Assembly: GCA_002716765.1 (NCBI GenBank)
Contig: PBBY01000007.1
Coordinates: 1-55,214, forward strand
Reading direction: 5' to 3'
Origin: Candidatus Magasanikiibacteriota bacterium
Lineage (GTDB): Bacteria; Patescibacteriota; Patescibacteriia; Magasanikbacterales; UBA922
Length of the DNA stretch: 55,214 nt
Shown here: in pieces, positions 9,470 through 52,539 of the stretch
Layout: each line of letters opens with the position of its first letter
Position numbering within the stretch: position 1 is the stretch's first letter
Notes under the pieces: model-generated
Databases searched by the model: none
What the model was told of the DNA's origin: nothing
What the model saw: the letters and a program-made list of their open reading frames with translations, nothing else
Position numbers and translations under genes: made by a program

Positions 9470-9478
9470 TTATCCACA
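9470..9478 (+). promoter_or_regulatory. Perfect DnaA-box 9-mer TTATCCACA, 6 nt upstream of a -35 element
   Basis: Exact match to the consensus; same geometry as the box at 46812. Confidence 0.5.
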
Positions 9479-10805: not shown

Positions 10806-12047
10806 ATGTCCAACATTCCTACCGAGAGTCGAGAGTCGGTAAAAATCGCGTTTGCAAGTAAATACACAGACGGTAATCAGCTTGGATTTGATACCTTGCC
10901 AAGTCCTATTGTACTACCTGATTCAAAACGTGAACTTATTATGACTGCAGGTCGTCGTGCTGCAAATGTATTGTTGAAAACAAACACCCTTTTTTCTGAA
11001 ATTCTAAGAGGTCGACACAAGGAATTGGCTTGGATGGAAGATTTATTTTTCGCAAGTATTTTACCAGAACATCGTAATCTTGCACGTGAATTGGCTGTTG
11101 CAACAGCCGGACTTGTTCCAAAGAATTTTCGTCTTGACTTATTCAGTGATGGGACTATCGCAGAAATCCAATGTCCTGGTTCAGGTTGGGGGTTTATTGC
11201 TGGTCTTGAGGATTACTATAACGTAAAATCTTCCACTGCTGTCAATTCATTTTCACAGTGGTTGGGAGGACAAACAGGTGTTTGGTGGTTATACAATGAG
11301 GGTATGGAGAGTAGTGTCACGCACCTTGCAAATAAGCTTGCATTAAGCGGCGTTAATCTTTTGGTGCAAAAAACACCAGAATTCGACCCAAACAGTACGC
11401 AGTGGCGGGTTGTCGTAAAGCGCCCACCATTACCGCAACTCTTAGAGAGCGAAAAAGGACGTACCCTGCTTTATCGTTGGCTTGATGGTCAAATTGACAT
11501 GGATCCTATTCCATCAATGATTCCGGAGACTAAATTTGCGATGGTGTTACTACATCATCCACAGACCAAGGATTTCTTTACTAGTGATGATCGATCTTTG
11601 TGTCATCCGACAACGTTGGTAACAGGTCTTGATCATCCTATCGGATCATATCGTATTGGAGATGCGTCAGGTCTTTCGCGGAGTCGTCGGCAGTTTGTGT
11701 TAAAGTATGGGGGTGCTCGAGCGTATGACCGTTTTGGGGGCCATTGTGTTTATGCACTAAATAAAATGAAGCGCCGACCAGATATCGCTCGTGTTGTTGC
11801 CCGCGCAGTAAATGAGTGGAATAAGGATCGCGAGGGGTGGGTTCTTCAACCTTTTGTTTCTTACAAATCAACACTCAAAGAGCTTGGTTTCGGCAGTGGT
11901 TCTGATAAAATGTATGTGTTATGGCGACCGGGCTTTCAGGTGCAAGATAATGGAGAGGTTGCCCATGTTGGCACAATAGTAAATCTGCGCAAGTCGTGGA
12001 AGGTTCACGGAGCCTCCGACACCTGTTTTGGTTTGTGTGTTCTGTAG
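10806..12047 (+). CDS. Divergent glutathionylspermidine-synthase/YgiC-like (pre-ATP-grasp) amidoligase candidate
   Basis: FRLDLFSDGTIAEIQ resembles SRLDLAWDGTGEPKLLENN of E. coli YgiC. FVLKYGGARAYDRFGG and GWVLQPFV follow in the same order. Strong SD AAAGGAGG. Confidence 0.4.
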   Translation: MSNIPTESRESVKIAFASKYTDGNQLGFDTLPSPIVLPDSKRELIMTAGRRAANVLLKTNTLFSEILRGRHKELAWMEDLFFASILPEHRNLARELAVATAGLVPKNFRLDLFSDGTIAEIQCPGSGWGFIAGLEDYYNVKSSTAVNSFSQWLGGQTGVWWLYNEGMESSVTHLANKLALSGVNLLVQKTPEFDPNSTQWRVVVKRPPLPQLLESEKGRTLLYRWLDGQIDMDPIPSMIPETKFAMVLLHHPQTKDFFTSDDRSLCHPTTLVTGLDHPIGSYRIGDASGLSRSRRQFVLKYGGARAYDRFGGHCVYALNKMKRRPDIARVVARAVNEWNKDREGWVLQPFVSYKSTLKELGFGSGSDKMYVLWRPGFQVQDNGEVAHVGTIVNLRKSWKVHGASDTCFGLCVL

Positions 12048-18798: not shown

Positions 18799-18827
18799 TT
18801 GAGTATTGTGGATAATTGGTATATACT
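18799..18827 (+). promoter_or_regulatory. Promoter TTGAGT-17-TATACT with a perfect DnaA box (TGTGGATAA, 18807-18815) inside the spacer
   Basis: -35 at 18799-18804, -10 at 18822-18827. Confidence 0.4.
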
Positions 18828-24097: not shown

Positions 24098-25591
<1,494 letters not shown>

Positions 25592-25724
25592 TGGAGTATG
25601 TTTCAGTGAAAATTGAAACTACTTGTCGACCTGTGTACTTTGTGCACAGAGAGTTCCGAAATATTATGATTCGGGATTAGTAGATGTCTGAAAAATCTTG
25701 TCACGTTTATACTGTGAATACAAA

Positions 25725-28421: not shown

Positions 28422-28430
28422 TGTGGATAA
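28422..28430 (-). promoter_or_regulatory. Perfect DnaA-box 9-mer (TGTGGATAA on the plus strand), followed by palindrome GTGGTA-ac-TACCAC
   Basis: Exact consensus; palindrome at 28435-28448, immediately before the -35. Confidence 0.45.
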
Positions 28431-34663: not shown

Positions 34664-35203
34664 ATGTCGCAATTATATACACAATTTAAAGAAAACATTG
34701 TCCCTGCACTAATGAGTGATTTCAGTTACAAAAATATCCATGAAGTCCCGGCTATTAAAAAAGTTACTATAAATGTTGGGTATGGACGTCATTCAAAAGA
34801 TAAGGGTTTTATAGACAATGTAGAAAAGACATTAACACAGATTACTGGACAAAAACCAGTCCACAACGAAGCAAAGAAAGCAATTTCAAACTTCAAGATA
34901 AGAAAAGGGATGGATATTGGTATGTCAGTCACACTCCGTGGAGAGCGTATGTACGAATTTATTTATAGACTTATCAATCTGGCAATTCCTAGAATACGTG
35001 ACTTTCGTGGATTATCCACAAACGGTTTTGATAGACAAGGTAATTACACTTTTGGTATAAAGGAGAATGTAGCTTTTCCAGAAATTGCTGCAGAGTCTTT
35101 AGACAAGATCCACGGATTACAGATTATTATTACTACGTCAGCAACAAACAAAAAAGAAGGTATGGCATTATTAGAAAAAATCGGCATGCCGTTTAAAAAA
35201 TAA
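34664..35203 (+). CDS. rplE: 50S ribosomal protein L5
   Basis: L5 family; operon position. Confidence 0.95.
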
Positions 35204-36831: not shown

Positions 36832-37461
36832 ATGCAAAAAGGTAGAGGAAGAAAATTCAAAAAAAGAGAAAAACCTGAGTTTGATCAACAAATTGTAGAT
36901 TTAGCTCGAGTAACTCGTGTAACAAAAGGTGGAAAACAACTGAGTTTTCGTGTCTGTATTGTTATTGGAGATAGAAAAAATCGAGTTGGTTATGGTGTAG
37001 CAAAAGGAAAAGATGTGCAAATTGCTGTAGAAAAAGCAGTTAGACAAGCAAAGAAAAATCTTATGACTATCCCATATGTAAATGAATCCATTCCTCATAG
37101 AGTTGAGTCAAAGTTTAAGGCAGCAAAAATTATGATTAAACCTGCACCTAAAGGATCTGGAATAATTGCTGGTGGTGCAGTCCGTACTGTATTAGAACTT
37201 GCTGGTGTACCGAATATTTCTGCAAAAATGATTGGAAAAACAACAAACAAGTTGACTAATGTTAGGGCAGTAATGTTAGCATTAACACAGTTTCACAGAG
37301 ACGCTCTTGCAAAAGCAAAAAGCTCAACAACTCCTGTGGTAAAAAAAAGTGAAAAAGTGATAGTAAATTCAGAAAAAAATAGTAACGCAAAAACAAAGAA
37401 AAAAAAGGAAGTAAGTAAAAAAGAAGAAAAATCAGCAGCAATAACAAAAGAAAAAAAGTAA
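36832..37461 (+). CDS. rpsE: 30S ribosomal protein S5 (K-rich C-terminal tail)
   Basis: RVTRVTKGGKQLSFR; GSGIIAGGAVR. Confidence 0.95.
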   Translation: MQKGRGRKFKKREKPEFDQQIVDLARVTRVTKGGKQLSFRVCIVIGDRKNRVGYGVAKGKDVQIAVEKAVRQAKKNLMTIPYVNESIPHRVESKFKAAKIMIKPAPKGSGIIAGGAVRTVLELAGVPNISAKMIGKTTNKLTNVRAVMLALTQFHRDALAKAKSSTTPVVKKSEKVIVNSEKNSNAKTKKKKEVSKKEEKSAAITKEKK

Positions 37462-37492
37462 TATATTAGAACAGTGAAATAACATTAGTAAT

Positions 37493-37936
37493 ATGTCATT
37501 AGCAGCACATACAATTACAAAAAATAACGGTTCACGTAGAACAGCAAAACGTGTTGGAAGAGGAAACGGTTCTGGTAAAGGAACGTATTCTTCACGCGGT
37601 CTAAAAGGTCAGCGTTCACGTTCTGGAGGAAAAGGTGGATTAAAACGTCTTGGTTTTAAACAAGCGCTACAAAAGATCCCTAAATTACGTGGTTTTACAA
37701 GTTTACAACCAAAATCAGAATTGGTCACACTTCAAACACTCGAAAGAATTTGTTCTGCGGGTGATGTTGTAACACCAAAGTTTTTAAAGAGAAAAGGTGT
37801 GGTAGACAAACCACAATTTGGTGTGAAGATCGTTCTTAAAGGAGAATTATCTAAAAAAGTTATCGTAAAAGATTGCAAGGTATCAAAAACAGCTGCCGAA
37901 GCTATTACAAAGGCTGGTGGAGAAATTATCGCATAA
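37493..37936 (+). CDS. rplO: 50S ribosomal protein L15 (follows rpsE directly; no L30 gene)
   Basis: GRGNGSGKGTYSSRGLKGQ. Confidence 0.95.
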   Translation: MSLAAHTITKNNGSRRTAKRVGRGNGSGKGTYSSRGLKGQRSRSGGKGGLKRLGFKQALQKIPKLRGFTSLQPKSELVTLQTLERICSAGDVVTPKFLKRKGVVDKPQFGVKIVLKGELSKKVIVKDCKVSKTAAEAITKAGGEIIA

Positions 37937-45456: not shown

Positions 45457-46671
45457 ATGAAAAATACACTTAATTCAATTACACAAGCTATTGCAGATAT
45501 TGCTGCAGGAAAAGTGGTTATTGTGGTAGATGATGAGAATCGTGAAAATGAGGGAGATTTTGTGGCGGCTGCCCAAAAAGCGAGCCCAGAAATGATTAAT
45601 TTTATGGCAACACATGGTCGTGGACTTATTTGTGCGCCAATCGCAGAAAAAAGAGTCGAAGAGTTGGGGTTAGATATGATGGTGGGAAAAAATACTGACC
45701 CACATCAAACACAGTTTACTGTTTCTGTAGATTGTGTTGGAAATGGGTGTACCACAGGGATTTCTGCAAGTGACAGGGCAAAAACAGTGCAGGCATTGGT
45801 AGATCCACACACCAAACCACATGATTTGGGAAGGCCGGGTCATATTTTTCCACTAAAAGCCCGTGATGGCGGGGTATTACGGAGAACTGGGCACACCGAA
45901 GCAGCTGTTGACCTTGCGCGTTTGGCAGGGCTAGAGCCAGCCGGAGTTATTGTAGAGATAATGAATGAAGATGGGACTATGGCACGGTTACCGCAACTCT
46001 ATGCCATTGCAAAAAAGCATAACCTGTCTATTATCTCTATTGAGGATTTAGTTGCATATAGAATGAAAAATGAGAGTCTTATTGAAAAAATGGAACAGGT
46101 TGCATTGCCAACCGCATATGGAGATTTTACTCTTACCGCGTACAAGCAAACCAATAATAATCGTATTCATATTGCATTACACAAAGGGGAGTGGCAAAAA
46201 AATGAGCCCGTATTAGTGCGAGTGCATTCTTCGTGCATTACCGGAGATATTTTTGGGTCATGCCGCTGTGATTGTGGCGAGCAATTACACACTGCAATGG
46301 AAATGGTAGAAAAAGAAGAAAAAGGTGTGATTGTGTATATGAACCAAGAAGGAAGAGGTATTGGATTCATTAATAAGCTTAGGGCATATTCCCTTCAAGA
46401 AAAAGGGTTTGATACTGTGGAAGCCAATGAAAAGCTTGGGTTTAAACCAGACGAAAGGGATTATGGTGTGGGGGCACAAATTTTGCGTGATTTGGGAGTA
46501 AGTTCTTTGCGTCTATTAACAAATAATCCAAAAAAACGAGCTGGTTTATTGGGGTATGGTCTGGAGATTCTAGAAAATGTGCGCATTGAGATGCCGGTAA
46601 ACAGACATAATGAGCAGTATTTAACAACAAAAAAGGAAAAAATGGGACATGCACTCTTTTTAAATAGATAA
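45457..46671 (+). CDS. ribBA: Bifunctional 3,4-dihydroxy-2-butanone-4-phosphate synthase / GTP cyclohydrolase II
   Basis: [11 protein letters not shown] (RibB) and [20 protein letters not shown] (RibA Zn site). Confidence 0.9.
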
Positions 46672-46719
46672 AACCCCTCTTGCGTTTTAGTGTATTCTCG
46701 TGTATTCTATTGAGTACAT

Positions 46720-46790
46720 GGGCGCGTCGGTTAATGGTAAACCACTGGTCTCCAAAACCAGAACTGTAGGTTCGATTCCTACCGCGCCTG
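46720..46790 (+). tRNA. tRNA-Trp (anticodon CCA)
   Basis: GGGCGCG/CGCGCCT acceptor (G1-U72), GGTT/AACC D stem, CTGGT-CTCCAAA-ACCAG, GTAGG-TTCGATT-CCTAC. Confidence 0.85.
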
Positions 46791-46811
46791 CAAAACTGTC
46801 GCAAGACGGAG

Positions 46812-46820
46812 TTATCCACA
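46812..46820 (+). promoter_or_regulatory. Perfect DnaA-box 9-mer TTATCCACA, 6 nt upstream of a -35 element
   Basis: Exact consensus; same geometry as the box at 9470. Confidence 0.5.
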
Positions 46821-46826
46821 TAATAC

Positions 46827-46855
46827 TTGACAAAAATATTTTGGGAGTGTATAGT
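46827..46855 (+). promoter_or_regulatory. Promoter TTGACA-17-TATAGT
   Basis: -35 at 46827-46832, -10 at 46850-46855. Confidence 0.55.
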
Positions 46856-46960
46856 AGTTTTACTTAATGCAAATGACTTGCGTTGAGTATATCGTTAGAA
46901 CATGGTTGATCTATACAACTATTGTTCACTTACACAATTCAATGAAAAAAGGAGTATTTG

Positions 46961-47857
46961 ATGGATCAAATGCCAAAAGCCGACAAAACAAACCATGCGG
47001 TCAGTGTTGTTGATAATCAGTTTCGTCTGCCAAAAGCCGACAAAACAAACCATGCGGTCAGTGTTGTTGATAATCAGTTTCTTCGCACCATTTGGGGTCC
47101 TTTTCTGCCAGGAGACATAGGTGTTATAAGAGAAGTGTACCCAGAGATTCCGCTAGATTTTATCGAAAAACTCACAGCTATAGACGGAGATCATGTTGAG
47201 TTAATTCCAGCAGCACGACTTCTGGAAGTGTTAATTCCTATAGAGTTAGTTGCTCGCTATTTACGGAATGAGTACTCTCAGATTAAACGTGGAATTGGAG
47301 ATATTAACATCGTCGCTAACCCTTTGAGCATTCTTTCCTTTGTGGATGGAGTTGTAAAACGTGTCATAACCCCAGAGACCGAGTTAATGCACAAGCCTGC
47401 AGAAAAGCTAGCCCTCAGAACCGGCGCGCTTGAAAAAGTGAACATGCTTTTAGACCGTTACTTTGGTCTGGAGCTGGCGTATGGTTGCAGCTGCTGTGCA
47501 CTGGTGTTTAAAAAAGAAGACCGTGAAGCAGTGCTTGCAAGTCAGTATTATCAAAAAAGAGAGCAGCAAGGTAGACACTGGGATAGCGATGTGCTTGCAG
47601 CGACCGGAAATCTTTATGGTCCTGTCCCGATTGCAGAGGTGCCAAGTGTTTTTCTGGAAAATTCTGTTGACTTTGGTCAAGAAGAGAAAGATAGTTATAT
47701 ACGCTTTTCTCAGACTGCTCAGCGCTGTATCGACGAACATCCGGATAATTCCCTCAATTTAAATAAGTGGTACAATCGTGCTGCCTGTTTTATAGGGGGA
47801 CAGTGCCAAAAGCATGGGGATCATTGTCCATTACCGCCTGTTCAGGATTACACATAA
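46961..47857 (+). CDS. Orphan protein A (298 aa) with an N-terminal duplicated 19-aa unit and a Cys-rich C-terminus
   Basis: SD AAAGGAG; PKADKTNHAVSVVDNQF twice; CSCC and CFIGGQCQKHGDHC clusters; no recognised domain. Confidence 0.6.
   Translation: MDQMPKADKTNHAVSVVDNQFRLPKADKTNHAVSVVDNQFLRTIWGPFLPGDIGVIREVYPEIPLDFIEKLTAIDGDHVELIPAARLLEVLIPIELVARYLRNEYSQIKRGIGDINIVANPLSILSFVDGVVKRVITPETELMHKPAEKLALRTGALEKVNMLLDRYFGLELAYGCSCCALVFKKEDREAVLASQYYQKREQQGRHWDSDVLAATGNLYGPVPIAEVPSVFLENSVDFGQEEKDSYIRFSQTAQRCIDEHPDNSLNLNKWYNRAACFIGGQCQKHGDHCPLPPVQDYT
46971..47084 (+). repeat. Tandem in-frame duplication, 2 x 57 bp (one mismatch near the unit end)
   Basis: Units start at 46971 and 47028; the first 53 nt of each unit are identical. 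Confidence 0.9.
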
Positions 47858-47904
47858 CATCCTACGCACATTTGATCGCGCGTTGAATTTTTAAGGAGTG
47901 TTTG

Positions 47905-47940
47905 CCGGAGTTAGACTATTGTGTTTTCTCCGGTGTTTTT
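47905..47940 (+). terminator. Hairpin plus T-tract after orphan A
   Basis: CCGGAG-N17-CTCCGG followed by TGTTTTT. Confidence 0.4.
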
Positions 47941-47954
47941 ATATATTTTTTACT

Positions 47955-48269
47955 ATGTTTACTTCTATTTTTTTTACCGCTTTTACTATTAGTTCTTTGT
48001 CGATTGGTTTTGCAACATTTTTGGGAGACCATCCAGCAATAAAAAAACGTTTGAAGGGTATAAGCAAATTTTTTGTTTGTGGCATTTGTCAGATGTTTTG
48101 GTTTTCTCTGTTTGTATTTTTGTTAGACATGCCGGTTATTTCAAAAAATCCTCAAATCAATTTTCTTGTAGTTTGGCAAACAACAGCTTTTTTTGGGTAT
48201 GTTTTTCGGTATGGTTTTTTGGTTATACTCGAGTCTGTAAAATGGCTTATTAAAAAAAATAATGTATGA
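47955..48269 (+). CDS. Small 3-TM membrane protein, DUF1360-like (CxxCxxxW)
   Basis: FFVCGICQMFWFSLF motif. TATATT (47942-47947) lies 7 nt before the ATG. ATGA overlap with the next gene. Confidence 0.5.
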   Translation: MFTSIFFTAFTISSLSIGFATFLGDHPAIKKRLKGISKFFVCGICQMFWFSLFVFLLDMPVISKNPQINFLVVWQTTAFFGYVFRYGFLVILESVKWLIKKNNV

Positions 48270-49111
48270 TTATCGGCTGTTTAGGTAAAGGTGGGAGCGG
48301 GAAGTCAACTATTGCAACTCTGTTGACAAAATATTTGGTATCACAAGGTAAGTGTGTTCTTGCTATTGATGCTGACCACAACATGGACCTGAGTCATAAT
48401 CTTGGGGCACCTCTTGAAAAGATGTCATTTATTGGTTCTTCTTTACCTTCGCTGCTATCTTATGTTGGTTTATCTAAGGATGAAAAATATTATGAAATTT
48501 TTTCAAAAGAGGGTAAGGATCCGGTTTTTCATTTTTCTGGTGCACAAGACTTGTATACAAAGCATTATGCACACCCACTTTCAGCATCACTTTTTATTAT
48601 GACGGCTGGGCCACATACCGAAAACATTCTTCATGGAAAATATTGTAGCCACTCTCTTGCAACTCCACTTAAGGTGTACCTCCCTTTTTTGTCTTTGCAA
48701 AATGACAATTATGTTGTGGTCGATGAAAAAGCTGGGTCTGATGGGGCAGGAACCGGGGTCTGTACTGGTTTTGATGTTGGTTGTATTATGGTGGAACCAA
48801 CAGAGCATGGGGTAAAAGCGGCAAAACAAATTGCAGAATTACTAGATTTTTTTGGTACACCATATGTATTTGTAGGTAATAAAGTGATGGATGAAGAGGA
48901 TATGTGTTATATTACCAAAAATATTCCCTGTGCACCTGTGACATGTATTAGTCATGGAAAAATGGCACGCGGTGCGATTTTGGATCAATCAGTTTCTATA
49001 CATCTATCGCATATTATTGGAGCGTTTCGTGATTTGGATATTACATCTCGTAAGCGTCGTTCTAAGGAAAAATTTGAAAAAAACAAAAATCATACAGATG
49101 TATTGGTTTAA
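48266..49111 (+). CDS. CooC/MinD/ParA-class (SIMIBI) P-loop ATPase
   Basis: Deviant Walker A GKGGSGKSTIA; LAIDADHN; VVVDEKAGSDG; MVEPTEHGVKAAKQI; GNKV. CooC-like layout, but C-S-H where CooC has CxC. Confidence 0.7.
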   Translation: MIIGCLGKGGSGKSTIATLLTKYLVSQGKCVLAIDADHNMDLSHNLGAPLEKMSFIGSSLPSLLSYVGLSKDEKYYEIFSKEGKDPVFHFSGAQDLYTKHYAHPLSASLFIMTAGPHTENILHGKYCSHSLATPLKVYLPFLSLQNDNYVVVDEKAGSDGAGTGVCTGFDVGCIMVEPTEHGVKAAKQIAELLDFFGTPYVFVGNKVMDEEDMCYITKNIPCAPVTCISHGKMARGAILDQSVSIHLSHIIGAFRDLDITSRKRRSKEKFEKNKNHTDVLV

Positions 49112-49157
49112 AAATACATGACTGAATGAGTCTTTTTTGATTAAAAAAACTTGGGTT

Positions 49158-49188
49158 TTGACAAATACCCTTTTTTTTGTTTTAGTAT
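49158..49188 (+). promoter_or_regulatory. Promoter TTGACA-17/19-TTTAGTAT
   Basis: -35 at 49158-49163; -10 candidates at 49181-49188. Confidence 0.4.
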
Positions 49189-49220
49189 ATGCAGTTCTTT
49201 TTATTTTCTTGGAGGAAACA

Positions 49221-50609
49221 ATGGAAGATCCTATAATGCAATTACCACAAATCCAATCTAATGGATTACATAACATTTTTGTTGGGGTTGAAAATCCACG
49301 ACCAAAATTTATTAAATATGGTGTGCCCGGTGCTGCGGGATATGACATGTCACACGCTACTCGTCTTTCGGTAAGAGATTCATTTAAAAAGGTTGTACAA
49401 CGTCCTTCTTTTTGGTATATTCCAAGATCAGAAGATGTTGTACGTATTCTTACTGCTGCCCATCATGTACACTTGTCTCGTGTGAGGAAAGGCGAAAAAC
49501 GTGCGTCTGATCCTATAACTGTTATTACTGTGGGTGATGGGTATGGTGATATACCTGCGCTTATTCTTACAGCTGCAAGAAAAGAGGGTTTGCATGTTAC
49601 GTGTCAGGTTATAAGTACTCAGGCAACAACAAGACATATGCAAAAAGGATTGTATGGTGCTGTCAAAGGACTTTCTTTTTTTTCTGGGTCACAATTACAA
49701 ATGCTGTTACATGTTTGGGGCGGTCAGCCATATATTGTTTCGGAGATTTCTACGCTTGCTGATTGCATAATACAATCAAGAAACTCTTTGGTTAATTTAC
49801 ACAGATTGATTCAACTATATGTTGATAGCTATGTTGCAAGGAATATCTCATCTGTTGGTGTAAAAACGTATGCTCGTATTCTCAGAGAAGATTTTGGTGT
49901 ACAATTTCCATCTGACTTTGTGATTCGTTCCGGAACATTGTATCAAATGTTTCAAGAAGGGGTGCGGTTTACACAACACATGCCATTGCTCGATTTTATG
50001 AGTAAAAAATATTCAGAAATGTGGAATAAAGGGTTTGTTCGTATAGAGGAGCTTTTGGTTAGTTCTTGCAAGTACGGTGCAGATATGGTCTTACAAACAA
50101 TTCCTTCTTTAGATTGTGCTGTTTCTGTGTTCGTACGACTAGTTCGTGCTGGTATTGTGGGCTACATTTTTGATTGTCGTACACAAAAGGATGTGGATAA
50201 GAGTGTGCCATCTACTAAGAACGTCTCATTTGATCTTATAAAAGATACTGCTATTGGAGAACGGTATATGCCATTTTGTGCATGGAGAGCAGTTTCAACT
50301 TCCGAACTAACCGGTCTTCGTGCGTGTGATGGCGATATTTTTGCAGTGTTCCCGCCTTCTGGTTATGGTCATGAACTATCAAAAAAACAAGATGGTGAAC
50401 ATTCGAATCCGGTATTTTTATTAAATGGGTGTGTTGATCTTTTGGATAGTGGTGCTATGTATCGAGAGGTTGGCAGCGTGAAAAGTTTTGGCATGTTTGG
50501 GTGGGAAAAATCACCCACACTTAAGGGTGTACCTTCTTCATGTGTTGTGTCATTGCAAGACCTGTCAGAATATTCAGTAAGAGATGTTAAAAGACTTTTG
50601 AATCCCTAA
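49221..50609 (+). CDS. Orphan protein D (462 aa), Cys/His-rich, possible Rossmann-like VITVGDGYGD segment
   Basis: Strong SD GGAGGA 5 nt before ATG 49221; no recognised family. Confidence 0.6.
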   Translation: MEDPIMQLPQIQSNGLHNIFVGVENPRPKFIKYGVPGAAGYDMSHATRLSVRDSFKKVVQRPSFWYIPRSEDVVRILTAAHHVHLSRVRKGEKRASDPITVITVGDGYGDIPALILTAARKEGLHVTCQVISTQATTRHMQKGLYGAVKGLSFFSGSQLQMLLHVWGGQPYIVSEISTLADCIIQSRNSLVNLHRLIQLYVDSYVARNISSVGVKTYARILREDFGVQFPSDFVIRSGTLYQMFQEGVRFTQHMPLLDFMSKKYSEMWNKGFVRIEELLVSSCKYGADMVLQTIPSLDCAVSVFVRLVRAGIVGYIFDCRTQKDVDKSVPSTKNVSFDLIKDTAIGERYMPFCAWRAVSTSELTGLRACDGDIFAVFPPSGYGHELSKKQDGEHSNPVFLLNGCVDLLDSGAMYREVGSVKSFGMFGWEKSPTLKGVPSSCVVSLQDLSEYSVRDVKRLLNP

Positions 50610-50649
50610 AGAGGGGTGGTGAAACTTATTAAGTTTCTCAGGGTAGACC

Positions 50650-50672
50650 AGAGGCGAGAGCCTCTTTTTTTA
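50650..50672 (+). terminator. Intrinsic terminator (preceded by a second hairpin at 50621-50637)
   Basis: AGAGGC-gaga-GCCTCT followed by T7. Confidence 0.65.
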
Positions 50673-50700
50673 TTTCTCAAAATTAGTTATACTATGAGCC

Positions 50701-51822
50701 ATGCATATGACACCTATAAAACAACACGTATTTCGGTTTTTATATAAGTATATTGGTAAACCAATATTTTTTCGATTTGATCCAGAAGTGACACATGATA
50801 TGGTGTTATGGTTTGGGAGAATACTGGGGAAATATCCACTACTCCAAAAATGCACACAGTGGTGTTTTGGTTATCGTAATCCAATGCTTTCACAGCAGCT
50901 GGCTGGTATTCACTTTCCCAATCCTGTTGGTATTGCAGCTGGTTTTGATAAAAATGCACAACTTATGAGTATATTACCAGAGGTTGGTTTTGGGTTCGAA
51001 GAAATTGGTTCGGTAACAGGTAAACCATGTGCAGGAAACGCAAAACCACGACTGTGGCGACTTAAAAAGTCACAGTCATTGTTGGTATATTATGGATTAA
51101 AAAATGATGGGTGTGAAGTGATAAAAACACGAGTTGCTGGTAAATCATTCCGATTTCCTATTGGTATAAGTATTGCAAAAACAAATAATACAGAAACGGT
51201 TGACGTACAAAAGGGGATTGCCGACTATGTACAGTCGTACCAAACACTTGCAACTTATGCCGACTATATTGCTATTAATATTAGTTGTCCAAATTCATTT
51301 GGTGGCTTGGCGTTTACCGATGCGCATCTTTTGGATCAATTACTTGCTGAAATAGAAAAAGAGTCGGTAAAAAAACCAGTATTTTTAAAACTTTCCCCAG
51401 ACTTACAAGAAAAAGATATAGATGCTATTCTTTTGGTGTGTAAAAAATATACCATTACCGGATTTATTTGCAGTAACCTTACCAAAGTACGAAAGAATGA
51501 AAAAATAGTAGATGTGGTGCCGTCAAAAAATGGGGGAATCAGTGGTAAAGTAGTGAGTGACTTGTCAAATTCATGTATAAAATATATCTACAAAAAAACA
51601 CAGGGAACATATATTATTGTTGGTTGTGGTGGAATTACCACCGCTCACGATGCCTACGAAAAAATAAAAGCAGGAGCCTCGCTTGTGCAACTTCTTACTG
51701 GAATGATTTTTGAAGGACCGCAAGTTATAGGAGAAATAAACAAGGGTTTGGTTGAATTAATTAAAAAAGATGGATACAAAAATATTTCAGAGGCGGTTGG
51801 GGTTGCTGTGGGTGTGGAGTAG
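50701..51822 (+). CDS. pyrD: Dihydroorotate dehydrogenase, class 2 (quinone-type) architecture
   Basis: N-terminal extension, NPVGIAAGFDKNA, GGISGK. TATACT (50688-50693) lies 7 nt before the ATG. Confidence 0.85.
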   Translation: MHMTPIKQHVFRFLYKYIGKPIFFRFDPEVTHDMVLWFGRILGKYPLLQKCTQWCFGYRNPMLSQQLAGIHFPNPVGIAAGFDKNAQLMSILPEVGFGFEEIGSVTGKPCAGNAKPRLWRLKKSQSLLVYYGLKNDGCEVIKTRVAGKSFRFPIGISIAKTNNTETVDVQKGIADYVQSYQTLATYADYIAINISCPNSFGGLAFTDAHLLDQLLAEIEKESVKKPVFLKLSPDLQEKDIDAILLVCKKYTITGFICSNLTKVRKNEKIVDVVPSKNGGISGKVVSDLSNSCIKYIYKKTQGTYIIVGCGGITTAHDAYEKIKAGASLVQLLTGMIFEGPQVIGEINKGLVELIKKDGYKNISEAVGVAVGVE

Positions 51823-51838
51823 TGGTCATAAAAAACTT

Positions 51839-51867
51839 TTGACGTCTATTCTATTTTTTTGTATAAT
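51839..51867 (+). promoter_or_regulatory. Consensus promoter TTGACG-17-TATAAT with no downstream ORF
   Basis: -35 at 51839-51844, -10 at 51862-51867. Confidence 0.55.
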
Positions 51868-51873
51868 TATTCT

Positions 51874-51968
51874 GTAGAGTATGACTCGTTCATATTCTGC
51901 GTTGAGGATCTAACTTCGGTTAGTTCCTTTAGAGAATAACACGATTTCGGTCGTGTTTTTCTTTTTTA
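51874..51968 (+). ncRNA. Candidate approximately 95-nt structured small RNA of unknown family
   Basis: TATTCT/AGAATA outer stem (51893-98/51933-38). GGATCTAAC-UUCG-GTTAGTTCC inner stem. Terminator ACACGA-tttcgg-TCGTGT plus T-run (51939-51968). Confidence 0.4.
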
Positions 51969-52118
51969 AAAGGTTTTTGATATTTGCTAGTAAGTGTGCA
52001 CACTTATTTAGAAAAAGCAAAAAAAAGCAAACTGCGTCCACATGAAACTGTTTGTAAACAGCACAAATAATCATATCATCTTCGAAAGTGAGGTGTCGTT
52101 TTGCATATAAAAAAACAA

Positions 52119-52146
52119 CAAAAAATCCTGCTTATGCAGGATTTTT
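52119..52146. terminator. Bidirectional terminator hairpin
   Basis: A-run, ATCCTGC-ttat-GCAGGAT, T-run. Confidence 0.6.
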
Positions 52147-52148
52147 AT

Positions 52149-52222
52149 TCGCTTGCAGTTCAATGGTAGAACAACCGGCTGTTAACCGGCAGGTTTCAGG
52201 TTCGAGTTCTAGCGAGGGGGCA
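52149..52222 (+). pseudogene. tRNA-Asn(GTT)-like sequence with non-pairing acceptor and weak T stem
   Basis: GTTC-AATGGTA-GAAC D arm, CCGG-CTGTTAA-CCGG anticodon arm and TTCGAGT T loop are present. TCGCTTG does not pair with CGAGGGG, and TCAGG/TCTAG pairs poorly. Confidence 0.4.
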
Positions 52223-52227
52223 GTGTT

Positions 52228-52539
52228 TTATAATGTGTATCTTTCTGTTATGTTTACCTTAAGTTTTGATAATATAGGATTTGGAATATGTTCTTCTACT
52301 CGTTTTATTGTCGCATCAGGTAGGATGCTGTGAAGATATTCAACAATAAGCGAGGAGTCTTCTTTTGAAGGGATAGCAAATCGTACAGATTTTTCTTTGT
52401 CATGTGTGTTTTCTACCAAGACATTTCTTTCCTTCTCAAGGCAGAGTTTTCGTATTCTCCCACGCAACATAACACCGCGTATCGGTGTTTCTTTTGTTTG
52501 GATTTCATAAATGTCCCAATGAATAAGTTTACTTGTCAT
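52228..52539 (-). CDS. Small hypothetical protein (103 aa)
   Basis: ORF only; weak acylphosphatase-like beta-alpha-beta pattern, not trusted. Confidence 0.4.
   Translation of the reverse strand: MTSKLIHWDIYEIQTKETPIRGVMLRGRIRKLCLEKERNVLVENTHDKEKSVRFAIPSKEDSSLIVEYLHSILPDATIKRVEEHIPNPILSKLKVNITERYTL

What the first reader, a model, noticed from the sequence alone, without database searches (positions are those of the whole stretch)
46791..50680. tRNA-Trp-adjacent cluster: two orphan proteins flanking a DUF1360-like membrane protein coupled to a CooC/MinD-type ATPase
Four co-oriented genes lie directly downstream of tRNA-Trp and upstream of pyrD. (A) 46961-47857 is an orphan with a duplicated N-terminal unit and C-terminal Cys clusters (CSCC, CFIGGQCQKHGDHC). 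(B) 47955-48269 is a 3-TM protein with a CxxCxxxW motif. (C) 48266-49111 is a SIMIBI ATPase laid out like the Ni-insertion ATPase CooC (GKGGSGKS, DADxN, VVVDxxAG, EPT, NKV), but it has C-S-H where CooC has its metal-binding CxC. (D) 49221-50609 is a 462-aa Cys/His-rich orphan with a VITVGDGYGD segment. B and C overlap by ATGA, which suggests translational coupling. A and D have their own consensus promoters, strong SD sequences and terminators. By eye, A and D are more G+C-rich than the neighbouring core genes. Promoter A carries a perfect DnaA box. A CooC-like maturation ATPase next to Cys/His-rich orphans could mean a metal-cofactor delivery or membrane-associated system, or a small acquired island such as a defence system. 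No integrase and no repeat of the tRNA 3' end was seen.
Basis: partly seen in the sequence, partly recalled or inferred. Interest (0 to 1): 0.7.

Follow-up and report, generated by a model that had tools for sequence, protein, structure and literature searches.

The report
Metal-regulated chaperone operon in a CPR bacterium
Three of the four genes form an uncharacterised operon conserved across Patescibacteria, most likely a metal-delivery system made of a CooC-type ATPase, a partner protein with no fold match in the libraries searched, and a small membrane protein; the fourth gene is an unrelated neighbour.

Summary
All four ORFs, the tRNA-Trp, the ATGA overlap and most of the listed motifs are real, but they are not one unit. 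A-B-C (46792-~49150) is a cassette. Across 36 loci from Patescibacteria, A lies next to C in 25. It lies next to a small Cys/His protein instead in 8. A Fur-family regulator is adjacent in 23, and a near-equivalog of the zinc chaperone ZigA in 5. The order is A-B-C in 6 loci and C-A or convergent elsewhere. A palindromic 6-5-6 operator, TGCAA-N5-TTGCA, of the same type as the Streptomyces Nur box, sits in the module promoter almost everywhere. In the window it is at 46866-46884. C resembles CooC over its full length, with invariant C-S-H where CooC has CxC. A has an invariant GCSCC (the COG0523-type CxCC motif) and a confident AlphaFold model with no match in PDB or BFVD. D is a separate transcription unit, a divergent methyltransferase-like protein syntenic with pyrD in relatives that lack A-B-C. 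My best reading is a metal-limitation-induced nucleotide-dependent metallochaperone module. Zinc is favoured and nickel is the main rival. Defence is not supported.

The parts
46720..46791 (+). tRNA-Trp (CCA); left boundary of the variable slot
   Evidence: ARAGORN and Rfam. The same tRNA sits after DUF1189 in L029, L001 and L007. Homology to L001/L007 ends at 46791.
46827..46855 (+). Promoter of A: -35 TTGACA (46827-46832), 17-nt spacer, -10 TATAGT (46850-46855)
   Evidence: Consensus scan, 11/12. The -35 is invariant and the -10 is conserved in L029, L009 and L012.
46866..46884 (.). Fur-family operator AATGCAAATGACTTGCGTT (6-5-6 palindrome, core TGCAA-N5-TTGCg, one mismatch), 11 nt downstream of the -10
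   Evidence: The same palindrome is in the module promoter of nearly all related loci. There are 24 exact copies in 285 kb of the sequences scanned (related loci plus the window), where about 0.3 would be expected at equal base frequencies (my own estimate). It is invariant in the near-clade alignment. The architecture equals the Nur box tTGCaa-N5-ttGCAA (PMC2691836).
46961..47857 (+). Gene A: 298-aa protein of an uncharacterised Patescibacteria family. Invariant G-C-S-C-C (aa 175-179, nt 47483-47497) and H144. The C-terminal CFIGGQCQKHGDHC is found only in the near clade.
   Evidence: No Pfam, NCBIfam or PDB sequence hit. 27 homologue clusters, 50 invariant columns. AF2 pLDDT 87.9, pTM 0.85. 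No Foldseek match in PDB or BFVD.
46971..47084 (+). 57-nt tandem duplication (2 copies, 98-100%) that duplicates 19 aa at the disordered N-terminus of A
   Evidence: TRF and the repeat finder. It is absent from the 85% homologue P0125.
47904..47952 (+). Hairpin (47904-47934) plus U-rich tract ending at B's ATG: a leaky intrinsic terminator or attenuator between A and B-C
   Evidence: A stable hairpin, different in sequence, sits at the same place in all five A-B-C loci, with z from -3.2 to -6.2.
47955..48269 (+). Gene B: 104-aa membrane protein, 3 predicted TM helices by my own reading of the sequence, with conserved DHP and C42-x-x-C45-x-x-x-W49 at the start of TM2. No SD.
   Evidence: The ATG start is conserved in L029, L009, L011 and L012. 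42-64% identity. No Pfam family. Present only in loci with A-B-C order.
48266..49111 (+). Gene C: CooC-type SIMIBI ATPase, 281 aa. Deviant Walker A GKGGSGKS (aa 7-14), DADHN, invariant C127-S128-H129 (nt 48644-48652), DEKAG. A basic C-terminal extension is absent from the CooC alignment.
   Evidence: PDB CooC1 3kje matches at E 9e-7 (single sequence) and 9e-15 (family profile), both full length. More than 897 homologues, several named from Patescibacteria; invariants.
49158..49220 (+). D's own promoter and 5'UTR (TTGACA 49158-49163, SD GGAGG 49211-49215). Homology to relatives that lack A-B-C resumes at about 49151, which marks the right boundary of the cassette.
   Evidence: Near-identical non-coding sequence lies upstream of D in L001 and L007, with an in-frame stop in L007. 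blastn boundaries.
49221..50609 (+). Gene D: 462-aa lineage-restricted protein whose N-terminal region is a divergent class I methyltransferase-like Rossmann domain. Not part of the A-B-C module.
   Evidence: Only 2 close homologue clusters, both next to a D paralogue and near pyrD, without A-B-C. 55 distant relatives among 1.84e9 representatives, of which 9/30 give weak Methyltransf_32 hits. AF2 failed.
50650..50675 (+). Intrinsic terminator of D
   Evidence: Terminator scan.

Best explanation
A-B-C is a metal-responsive operon of Patescibacteria that encodes a nucleotide-dependent metallochaperone system.

Shown:
- C is a CooC-type ATPase with an intact deviant Walker A and switch motifs, and an invariant Cys-Ser-His where CooC has its metal-binding CxC.
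- A is its conserved genomic partner. It carries an invariant GCxCC motif, which is the high-affinity metal site motif of COG0523/ZigA chaperones.
- The operon sits behind a Fur-family operator.

Inferred:
- A Fur-family repressor encoded elsewhere in this genome binds the 6-5-6 palindrome just downstream of the -10 when its metal is plentiful. It releases the operator under metal limitation.
- ATP-bound C dimerises around one metal ion through 2 x (Cys127, His129), as CooC, HypB and UreG do. ATP hydrolysis then passes the metal to or from the Cys3(+His144) site of A.
- A has about 50 invariant, mostly polar, residues. It is therefore more likely a client enzyme than a simple carrier.
- B is translationally coupled to C and has a CxxC at the cytoplasmic end of TM2. 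It tethers C to the membrane or hands it incoming metal.
- The hairpin between A and B keeps B-C at lower levels than A.
- Zinc is the most likely metal, because a ZigA near-equivalog heads the same operon in 5 relatives. Nickel is second.

D is an unrelated neighbouring gene.
For: - C resembles CooC1 over its full length. Its invariant motifs are GKGGSGK, DADHN, CSH and DEKAG.
- Among 36 A-containing loci, A is next to C in 25 and next to a 107-aa Cys/His protein in 8, and these two cases never overlap. A Fur-family gene is adjacent in 23, ZigA in 5, and B in 6. These occur in four different gene arrangements.
- The COG0523 gene in L015 scores 584 bits against the ZigA equivalog model, cutoff 600.
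- The operator TGCAA-N5-TTGCA is present in the promoters, and in the regulator's own promoter in L019 and L030.
- In the window and in L009 and L012 the operator lies just downstream of the -10; in L011 it overlaps the -35/-10 spacer. Both positions fit repression.
- CxCC is the Zn site of COG0523/ZigA, with S3(N/O) coordination (PMC9164220; PMC11672702).
- C homologues that lack A are followed by other proteins with CCGSC or GCGC motifs. hhalign places these on A's GCSCC strand-turn.
- The B-C ATGA coupling is conserved.
Against: - No metal binding, ATPase activity or A-C contact has been shown. Everything rests on sequence and gene context.
- The window (55 kb) contains no Fur homologue, so regulation here assumes a regulator encoded elsewhere.
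- The window's operator has one mismatch.
- The regulators reach no NCBIfam equivalog cutoff (Fur, PerR and Zur score alike).
- The operator is not a classical 7-1-7 Zur box.
- ZigA is present in only 5 of 36 loci and not in the window.
- A holo-repressor logic fits a chaperone but is odd for an enzyme that needs the scarce metal.
- The hhalign matches to the alternative partners are weak (E 0.05, probability 1%).
Confidence: 0.5

Rival explanations
1. Nickel system. The regulator is a Nur-like nickel sensor. C is a true Ni insertase like CooC/AcsF. A is a Ni (or Co/Fe) enzyme whose Cys-Ser-Cys tripeptide forms a thiolate/amidate N2S2 site, as in acetyl-CoA synthase (Cys-Gly-Cys), NiSOD or nitrile hydratase (C-S-L-C-S-C).
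For: The operator has exactly the 6-5-6 TGCAA-N5-TTGCA architecture that An et al. describe as unique to Nur within the Fur family (PMC2691836). CooC, the closest solved relative of C, is a Ni insertase. C-x-H resembles the Ni-binding CH motif of HypB and, from memory, the CPH motif of UreG. The partner in L031 has a literal Cys-Gly-Cys.
Against: Nur's Ni-site histidines H70 and H72 are Gln and Asp in the one regulator aligned, from L025. Most other regulators lack His in that hairpin. None is closer to Nur than to Fur, PerR or Zur. The co-operonic COG0523 is of the zinc (ZigA) type. No known Ni enzyme or Ni transporter appears in any locus. The N2S2 analogy is from memory and was not tested.
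Confidence: 0.2
2. Redox or Fe-S reading. The regulator is PerR- or Fur-like. C is an Mrp/NBP35-like carrier of a Cys/His-bridged Fe-S cluster, or A is a thiol-based oxidative-stress enzyme induced by peroxide or iron limitation.
For: The short regulators (L015 type) score best against PerR (PDB 2fe3, E 2.7e-12, against 1e-8 or weaker for the others; NCBIfam Mn-dependent PerR). Others score best against Bacillus Fur. Iron-related genes (VIT1, a FeoB_N-type GTPase domain) lie near L009. Mrp and NifH relatives appear among C's weak hits.
Against: C lacks the CxxC of Mrp/NBP35 and the two Cys of NifH. Its only full-length solved relative is CooC. PerR and Fur boxes are 7-1-7, not 6-5-6. ZigA linkage points to zinc. 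The nearby iron-related genes are not conserved neighbours.
Confidence: 0.1
3. C is a ParA/MinD-type positioning or partition ATPase with B as its membrane anchor, and it is not involved in metal handling. The linkage to A and Fur is incidental.
For: Pfam and NCBIfam hits to CbiA, ParA, MinD and BcsQ over the P-loop. There is a basic C-terminal extension and a coupled membrane protein.
Against: Those hits cover only residues 6-50, and only CooC aligns full length. The invariant C-S-H sits at the CooC metal site. The linkage to A, Fur, ZigA and the operator holds across four arrangements in dozens of loci.
Confidence: 0.05
4. All four genes A-D form one acquired island or defence system, as the first reader suggested as an alternative.
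For: The cluster is tRNA-adjacent. The content of the slot varies between close relatives. A is a GC3 outlier.
Against: D occurs without A-B-C in relatives and has its own conserved promoter. There is no PADLOC hit beyond a P-loop match. No integrase or att repeat was found. A-C is embedded in metal-homeostasis contexts elsewhere.
Confidence: 0.03

Closest known systems
CooC / AcsF (COG3640), the MinD-type ATPases that insert Ni into CO dehydrogenase and acetyl-CoA synthase
   Same: C aligns with CooC1 (PDB 3kje) over its full length. It has the deviant Walker A with the signature lysine and the switch I/II motifs, and a conserved Cys at the position of the second Cys of CooC's CxC.
   Different: The motif is K-Y-C-S-H rather than C-x-C. 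There is a roughly 50-aa basic C-terminal extension. No CODH/ACS gene appeared in the Pfam-annotated loci. The partner is an unknown-fold CxCC protein. The operon is under a Fur-family operator and is sometimes co-operonic with ZigA.
COG0523 / ZigA zinc metallochaperone GTPases (Zur regulon)
   Same: A carries the family's hallmark GCxCC motif. A ZigA near-equivalog heads the same operon in 5 relatives. The whole module is under a Fur-family repressor, as zigA is under Zur.
   Different: A has no P-loop or G-domain and no cobW Pfam hit. Its predicted structure matches nothing solved. The NTPase activity would come from a separate, SIMIBI/MinD-type ATPase.
Streptomyces coelicolor Nur and its Nur box
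   Same: The operator has the same 6-5-6 palindrome with the same core bases, TGCAA-N5-TTGCA.
   Different: The neighbouring regulators lack Nur's Ni-site His70/His72 and are not specifically related to Nur. The target genes are different.
HypB / UreG (G3E Ni chaperones with CH / CPH motifs)
   Same: A Cys and a His two residues apart, predicted to lie at a nucleotide-controlled dimer interface, suggest a Cys2His2 transfer site (CH motif; UreG CPH from memory).
   Different: C belongs to a different P-loop class, being a MinD-type ATPase rather than a G3E GTPase. No urease or hydrogenase genes are nearby.
MerT/MerF-type small Cys-pair membrane metal relays (analogy for B only, from memory)
   Same: B is a small 3-TM protein with a Cys pair in a TM helix, encoded directly upstream of a cytoplasmic metal-handling protein.
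   Different: No sequence similarity was detected, and the motif and spacing differ. This is purely an analogy.

Membership tests
CooC family (COG3640) | Deviant Walker A GKGGxGK[ST] and full-length similarity to CooC | tested here: met
   GKGGSGKS is invariant. 3kje matches at E 9e-7 (sequence) and 9e-15 (profile) over residues 1-227.
CooC family (COG3640) | CxC metal-binding motif at the dimer interface | tested here: not met
   HMMER aligns K125-Y-C127 to C112-Y-C114 of CooC1. The family invariant is C-S-H.
CooC family (COG3640) | Genomic association with CODH/ACS (cooS, acsB) | tested here: not met
   The precomputed Pfam lists of the annotated loci show no CODH/ACS domain. The 30 loci fetched by the search for related loci were scanned only for A, B, C, Fur, ZigA and the small Cys/His protein, and most window ORFs were not scanned, so absence there is untested.
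CooC family (COG3640) | ATP-dependent Ni insertion | not testable with these tools
   Needs biochemistry.
COG0523 / ZigA (for protein A) | CxCC high-affinity metal motif | tested here: met
   G175-C176-S177-C178-C179 is invariant or nearly so in 27 sequences. The motif definition comes from PMC9164220 and PMC11672702.
COG0523 / ZigA (for protein A) | G3E GTPase domain (cobW) with P-loop | tested here: not met
   No Pfam or NCBIfam hit at E<=1. No PDB sequence or fold match.
Nur regulon | 6-5-6 operator tTGCaa-N5-ttGCAA in the promoter | tested here: met
   Window 46866-46884 (one mismatch), with exact copies in the related promoters.
Nur regulon | Regulator with Ni-site His70/His72/His126 | tested here: not met
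   In the L025 regulator aligned to 3eyy, H70 becomes Q and H72 becomes D. Only H126 is kept. No regulator gene lies in the window.
Zur regulon | Co-regulation with zinc-type COG0523 (ZigA) or Zn uptake genes | tested here: inconclusive
   A ZigA near-equivalog (584 bits, cutoff 600) lies in the same operon in L015, L023, L024, L032 and L037, but not in the window. The regulators are not assignable to Zur, and the box is not of the 7-1-7 type.
DUF1360 (PF07098), for protein B | Match to the Pfam model | tested here: not met
No hit for B or three homologues at E<=10.
Class I SAM methyltransferases, for protein D | Motif I GxGxG after a beta strand, and an acidic residue at the end of beta2 (motif II) | tested here: inconclusive
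   VGDGYGD is present. Distant family members read IVDIGGANG...VVDPD, and 9/30 hit Methyltransf_32 (best E 2.8e-5). D itself has QVIST at motif II and no Pfam hit. AF2 was uninformative.
Anti-phage defence systems (PADLOC) | Match of any of A-D to a defence protein model | tested here: not met
   Only a 30-residue P-loop match of C to PDC-M28B, E 6e-4.
tRNA-integrated genomic island | Integrase and a direct repeat of the tRNA 3' end | tested here: not met
   There is no repeat of the tRNA 3' end in 46600-52400. None of the ORFs scanned against Pfam around the cassette is an integrase; the rest of the window was not scanned. The content of the slot does vary between relatives.

The most novel reading that the evidence does not exclude
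A and C together are a previously undescribed two-component nucleotide-dependent metallochaperone, confined so far to Patescibacteria. A MinD/CooC-class ATPase with a Cys-x-His transfer site works with a protein of new fold that carries the COG0523-type CxCC site, under a Fur-family sensor that uses a Nur-type 6-5-6 operator. This would be a functional analogue of ZigA/COG0523 built from different parts. In one subclade a 107-aa Cys/His protein replaces the ATPase, and in others different CxC-bearing proteins replace A.
Probability: 0.35. Interest if true: 0.75.

Novelty: new variant of a known kind. Interest (0 to 1): 0.62.

Why it matters
Patescibacteria have tiny genomes, and how they allocate metals is essentially unknown. 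This work identifies a conserved, apparently dedicated metal-responsive regulon in them. It has a defined operator, a candidate sensor, a CooC-class ATPase used outside CO metabolism, and a partner family with a confident predicted structure that matches nothing solved.

If confirmed, it would extend the short list of nucleotide-dependent metallochaperone types. It would give a client or partner for a CooC-like protein in organisms without CODH. It would also show that the 6-5-6 'Nur-type' operator is not restricted to actinobacterial nickel sensors. For genome annotation, hundreds of 'CO dehydrogenase maturation factor' calls in CPR genomes would then be misleading.

Tried and rejected
- Treating 49137 (TTG) as D's start with an N-terminal TM helix. 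Rejected because L007 has an in-frame stop there and the conservation is at the nucleotide level, meaning promoter and 5'UTR.
- 'D evolves unusually fast.' I first inferred this from 55% identity for D against 92% for pyrD. Rejected because map (77% nt) and recO (69%) are as diverged as D (73-75%). pyrD is the outlier.
- AF2 of D with 3 sequences gave pLDDT 30 and was unusable. No fold search was attempted on it.
- Foldseek of A against PDB and BFVD found nothing, with best E 1.5 and 0.74. The A profile against PDB sequences also found nothing.
- The DnaA box as a regulator of promoter A. It is not conserved in L029, L009 or L012.
- The AAGGAG at 47893 as an SD for B or for a small upstream ORF. 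It is the 5' flank of the terminator region, it is not conserved (AAGGAC in L029), and B's conserved start is ATG 47955.
- Assigning the neighbouring regulators to Nur, Zur, PerR or Fur by similarity gave ambiguous results.
- Literature searches for CooC-like proteins in CPR found nothing relevant; most hits were for the word 'cooccurrence'.
- A second operator half-site at 46789-46803, overlapping the tRNA end, has one mismatch. Genome-wide one-mismatch hits are at chance level (7 against 4.6 expected), so it was not counted.

Full report
**Observation.**
- tRNA-Trp lies at 46720-46791.
- Four co-oriented ORFs follow: A 46961-47857, B 47955-48269, C 48266-49111 and D 49221-50609.
- ribBA lies upstream and a quinone-type pyrD downstream.
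- The B/C ATGA overlap, the SD sequences, promoter A (TTGACA-17-TATAGT), the DnaA 9-mer at 46812-46820 and D's terminator are all present.
- The duplicated N-terminus of A is a near-perfect 57-nt tandem duplication.

Several points need correction.
- Only A is compositionally unusual (GC3 z=2.7). C and D are average.
- D is not markedly Cys/His-rich.
- B gives no DUF1360 hit.
- TTATCCACA occurs six times in the window against 0.74 expected. It is not conserved in front of A in relatives.

**Organism.** Homologues of A and C that carry names come from Patescibacteria: Paceibacterota, Kaiserbacteria and Moraniibacteriota. S5 is followed directly by L15 with no L30 between them, which fits the CPR. 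GC content is about 0.37.

**The four genes are not one unit.** D has only two close homologue clusters among 5.8 billion proteins. In those contigs it sits after a paralogue of itself and near pyrD, and A, B and C are absent. Three arrangements of the shared backbone were seen.
- Window: map-ruvX-recO-DUF1189-(ribBA)-tRNA-Trp-A-B-C-D-pyrD.
- L029 (A 85% identical): DUF1189-tRNA-Trp-A-B-C, where the contig ends.
- L001 and L007: DUF1189-tRNA-Trp-Dparalogue-D-(two genes)-pyrD.

Homology to L001 and L007 stops at the tRNA 3' end (46791) and resumes at about 49151, at D's -35. A-B-C is therefore a 2.36-kb cassette in a variable slot. No att repeat was found, and no integrase among the ORFs examined. 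D's promoter and 5'UTR are almost identical in the relatives. An in-frame stop in L007 shows that the sequence upstream of 49221 is non-coding.

**D.** A profile search of 1.84 billion representatives finds 55 relatives. They share residues of about 50-235 with D. Nine of 30 give weak class I methyltransferase hits, and the family consensus reads IVDIGGANG...VVDPD. D keeps VGDGYGD but has QVIST at motif II. The AlphaFold model was unusable. D is best described as a lineage-restricted, divergent methyltransferase-like protein of unknown role. My early impression that it evolves fast was wrong. Its divergence (73-75% nt) matches that of map and recO, and it is pyrD (92%) that is unusually similar.

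**A-B-C is a conserved module.** I gathered 36 A-containing loci from encoding-contig look-ups, species-representative genomes and metagenome contigs. The counts are:

| Feature next to A | Loci (of 36) |
|---|---|
| C adjacent | 25 |
| 107-aa Cys/His protein (HRCDPSVCEYGDHVHV) instead of C | 8 |
| Fur-family gene adjacent | 23 |
| COG0523 gene heading the operon | 5 |
| B present (always in A-B-C order) | 6 |

The loci with C and those with the small Cys/His protein never overlap. Of the three remaining loci, in one the contig ends within A, in another A is split, and the third simply lacks both partners. The module occurs in four arrangements: A-B-C; (ZigA)-C-A-(Fur); Fur<->A with C convergent; and Fur<->small protein-A. 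Linkage that survives this much rearrangement is strong evidence that A and C work together. The COG0523 gene scores 584 bits against NCBI's ZigA (zinc metallochaperone) equivalog model, just under the cutoff of 600.

**Regulation.** Every module promoter I inspected carries one or two copies of a palindrome, aaTGCAA-N5-TTGCAtt.
- Exact cores occur 24 times in 285 kb of the sequences scanned (related loci plus the window). About 0.3 would be expected from equal base frequencies (my own estimate).
- Almost all copies lie in module promoters or in the regulator's own promoter.
- In the window the site is AATGCAAATGACTTGCGTT at 46866-46884, 11 nt after the -10. It is aligned with invariant copies in L029, L009 and L012. 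This position suits a repressor.
- The 6-5-6 architecture and core bases equal the Nur box of Streptomyces coelicolor. An et al. describe that box as unique among Fur-family operators and tie it to Nur's Ni-site (PMC2691836).
- The CPR regulators do not have that site. In the one I aligned, H70 and H72 are Gln and Asp.
- The regulators score similarly against Fur, PerR, Zur and Nur.
- The window itself has no Fur homologue, so the sensor must be encoded elsewhere in the genome.

**Protein C.** The family profile matches only CooC over its full length (3kje, E 9e-15). Other P-loop proteins match only the first 50 or so residues. The invariant residues are GKGGSGK, DADHN, GP.T, C127-S128-H129, DEKAG and EP. 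HMMER puts C127 on the second Cys of CooC's C-x-C and a Lys on the first. Each monomer therefore offers a Cys and a His. This resembles the CH motif of HypB. A dimer could form a Cys2His2 transfer site, but that step is inferred.

**Protein A.** It has no Pfam, NCBIfam or PDB sequence match.
- Twenty-seven homologues down to 36% identity share 50 invariant positions. These include G-C-S-C-C, H144, RLLEV, NPLSIL and DSD.
- The AlphaFold model is confident (pLDDT 87.9, pTM 0.85).
- Foldseek finds nothing in PDB (best E 1.5, TM 0.14) or in BFVD.
- GCxCC is the hallmark high-affinity metal motif of COG0523 proteins, and in ZigA all three Cys bind Zn. A has that motif without any GTPase domain.
- The C-terminal CFIGGQCQKHGDHC cluster is confined to the near clade, and the N-terminal duplication to this lineage.
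- Two C homologues that lack A are followed by unrelated proteins carrying CCGSC or GCGCDH motifs. hhalign places these on the same helix-strand-turn as GCSCC, but the match is weak (E 0.05).

**Protein B and the A-B junction.** B's ATG is conserved and lacks an SD. By my own reading of the sequence, B has three TM segments, with DHP and CxxCxxxW motifs and a positive-inside topology that puts the CxxC near the cytoplasm. In all five A-B-C loci a stable hairpin, different in sequence, is followed by a U-rich tract that ends at B's ATG (z from -3.2 to -6.2). There is no room for a promoter there. B-C must therefore be expressed by read-through of a leaky terminator, which would set A well above B-C in abundance.

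**Interpretation.** The best-supported reading is a metal-limitation-induced, nucleotide-dependent metallochaperone module.
- I favour zinc because of the ZigA co-operon and the CxCC motif.
- Nickel is the main rival because of the Nur-type operator, the kinship with CooC and the Cys-x-His motif.
- An Fe-S or peroxide reading and a ParA-like reading are less likely.
- A defence role has no support.
- No paper in the searchable library describes this module.

**Verdict.** It merits experimental follow-up.

Noticed in passing
window 9470-9478, 18807-18815, 28422-28430, 35012-35020, 46812-46820, 50192-50200: The perfect DnaA-box 9-mer TTATCCACA occurs 6 times against 0.74 expected (0 of 100 shuffles reach 6). 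Four copies are intergenic. Two (9470 and 46812) lie exactly 6 nt upstream of a TTGACA -35. This may be a genome-wide promoter-proximal element rather than an origin.
   Followed up: partly
window 24098-25590: A complete 16S rRNA gene stands alone. A protein-coding ORF starts at 25684 and there is no 23S in the window, so the rRNA operon is unlinked.
   Followed up: no
window 52149-52220: A tRNA-like element is called by Rfam only (35.5 bits, cutoff 29) and not by ARAGORN. The anticodon loop reads CTGTTAA (GTT, Asn?), and the acceptor stem looks imperfect.
   Followed up: partly
window 50664-51800 and 52216-52500 vs L001: pyrD and the stretch after it are 92-95% identical in nucleotides to a relative whose map, recO and D genes are only 69-77% identical. 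This suggests recent recombination or transfer of the pyrD segment.
   Followed up: partly
window 45457-46671: ribBA lies between DUF1189 and tRNA-Trp only in this genome. L029, L001 and L007 go straight from DUF1189 to the tRNA. Riboflavin and de novo pyrimidine genes are uncommon in CPR (my own knowledge).
   Followed up: partly
window 49151-49220; L001 6466-6530; L007 8172-8241: D's promoter and 5'UTR are far more conserved (near-identical) than its coding sequence (55-64% aa). This hints at a regulatory element in the leader.
   Followed up: partly
L022 5598-5921, L025, L027, L028, L033, L038, L040, L048: A 107-aa protein with HRCDPSVCEYGDHVHV and no Pfam match replaces the ATPase C as A's upstream neighbour in one subclade. 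It may be an ATP-independent metallochaperone.
   Followed up: partly
L030 5932-6351; L031 5913-6647: C homologues with a Fur gene and two operators are followed by proteins that are not A but carry CCGSC or GCGCDH motifs. These are possible alternative partners.
   Followed up: partly
window 10806-12047: This is the other compositional outlier in the window (GC 0.444, GC3 z=2.2). It was not examined.
   Followed up: no
window 36832-37936: Ribosomal protein S5 is followed directly by L15 with a 31-nt gap, so L30 is absent. This is consistent with CPR.
   Followed up: partly
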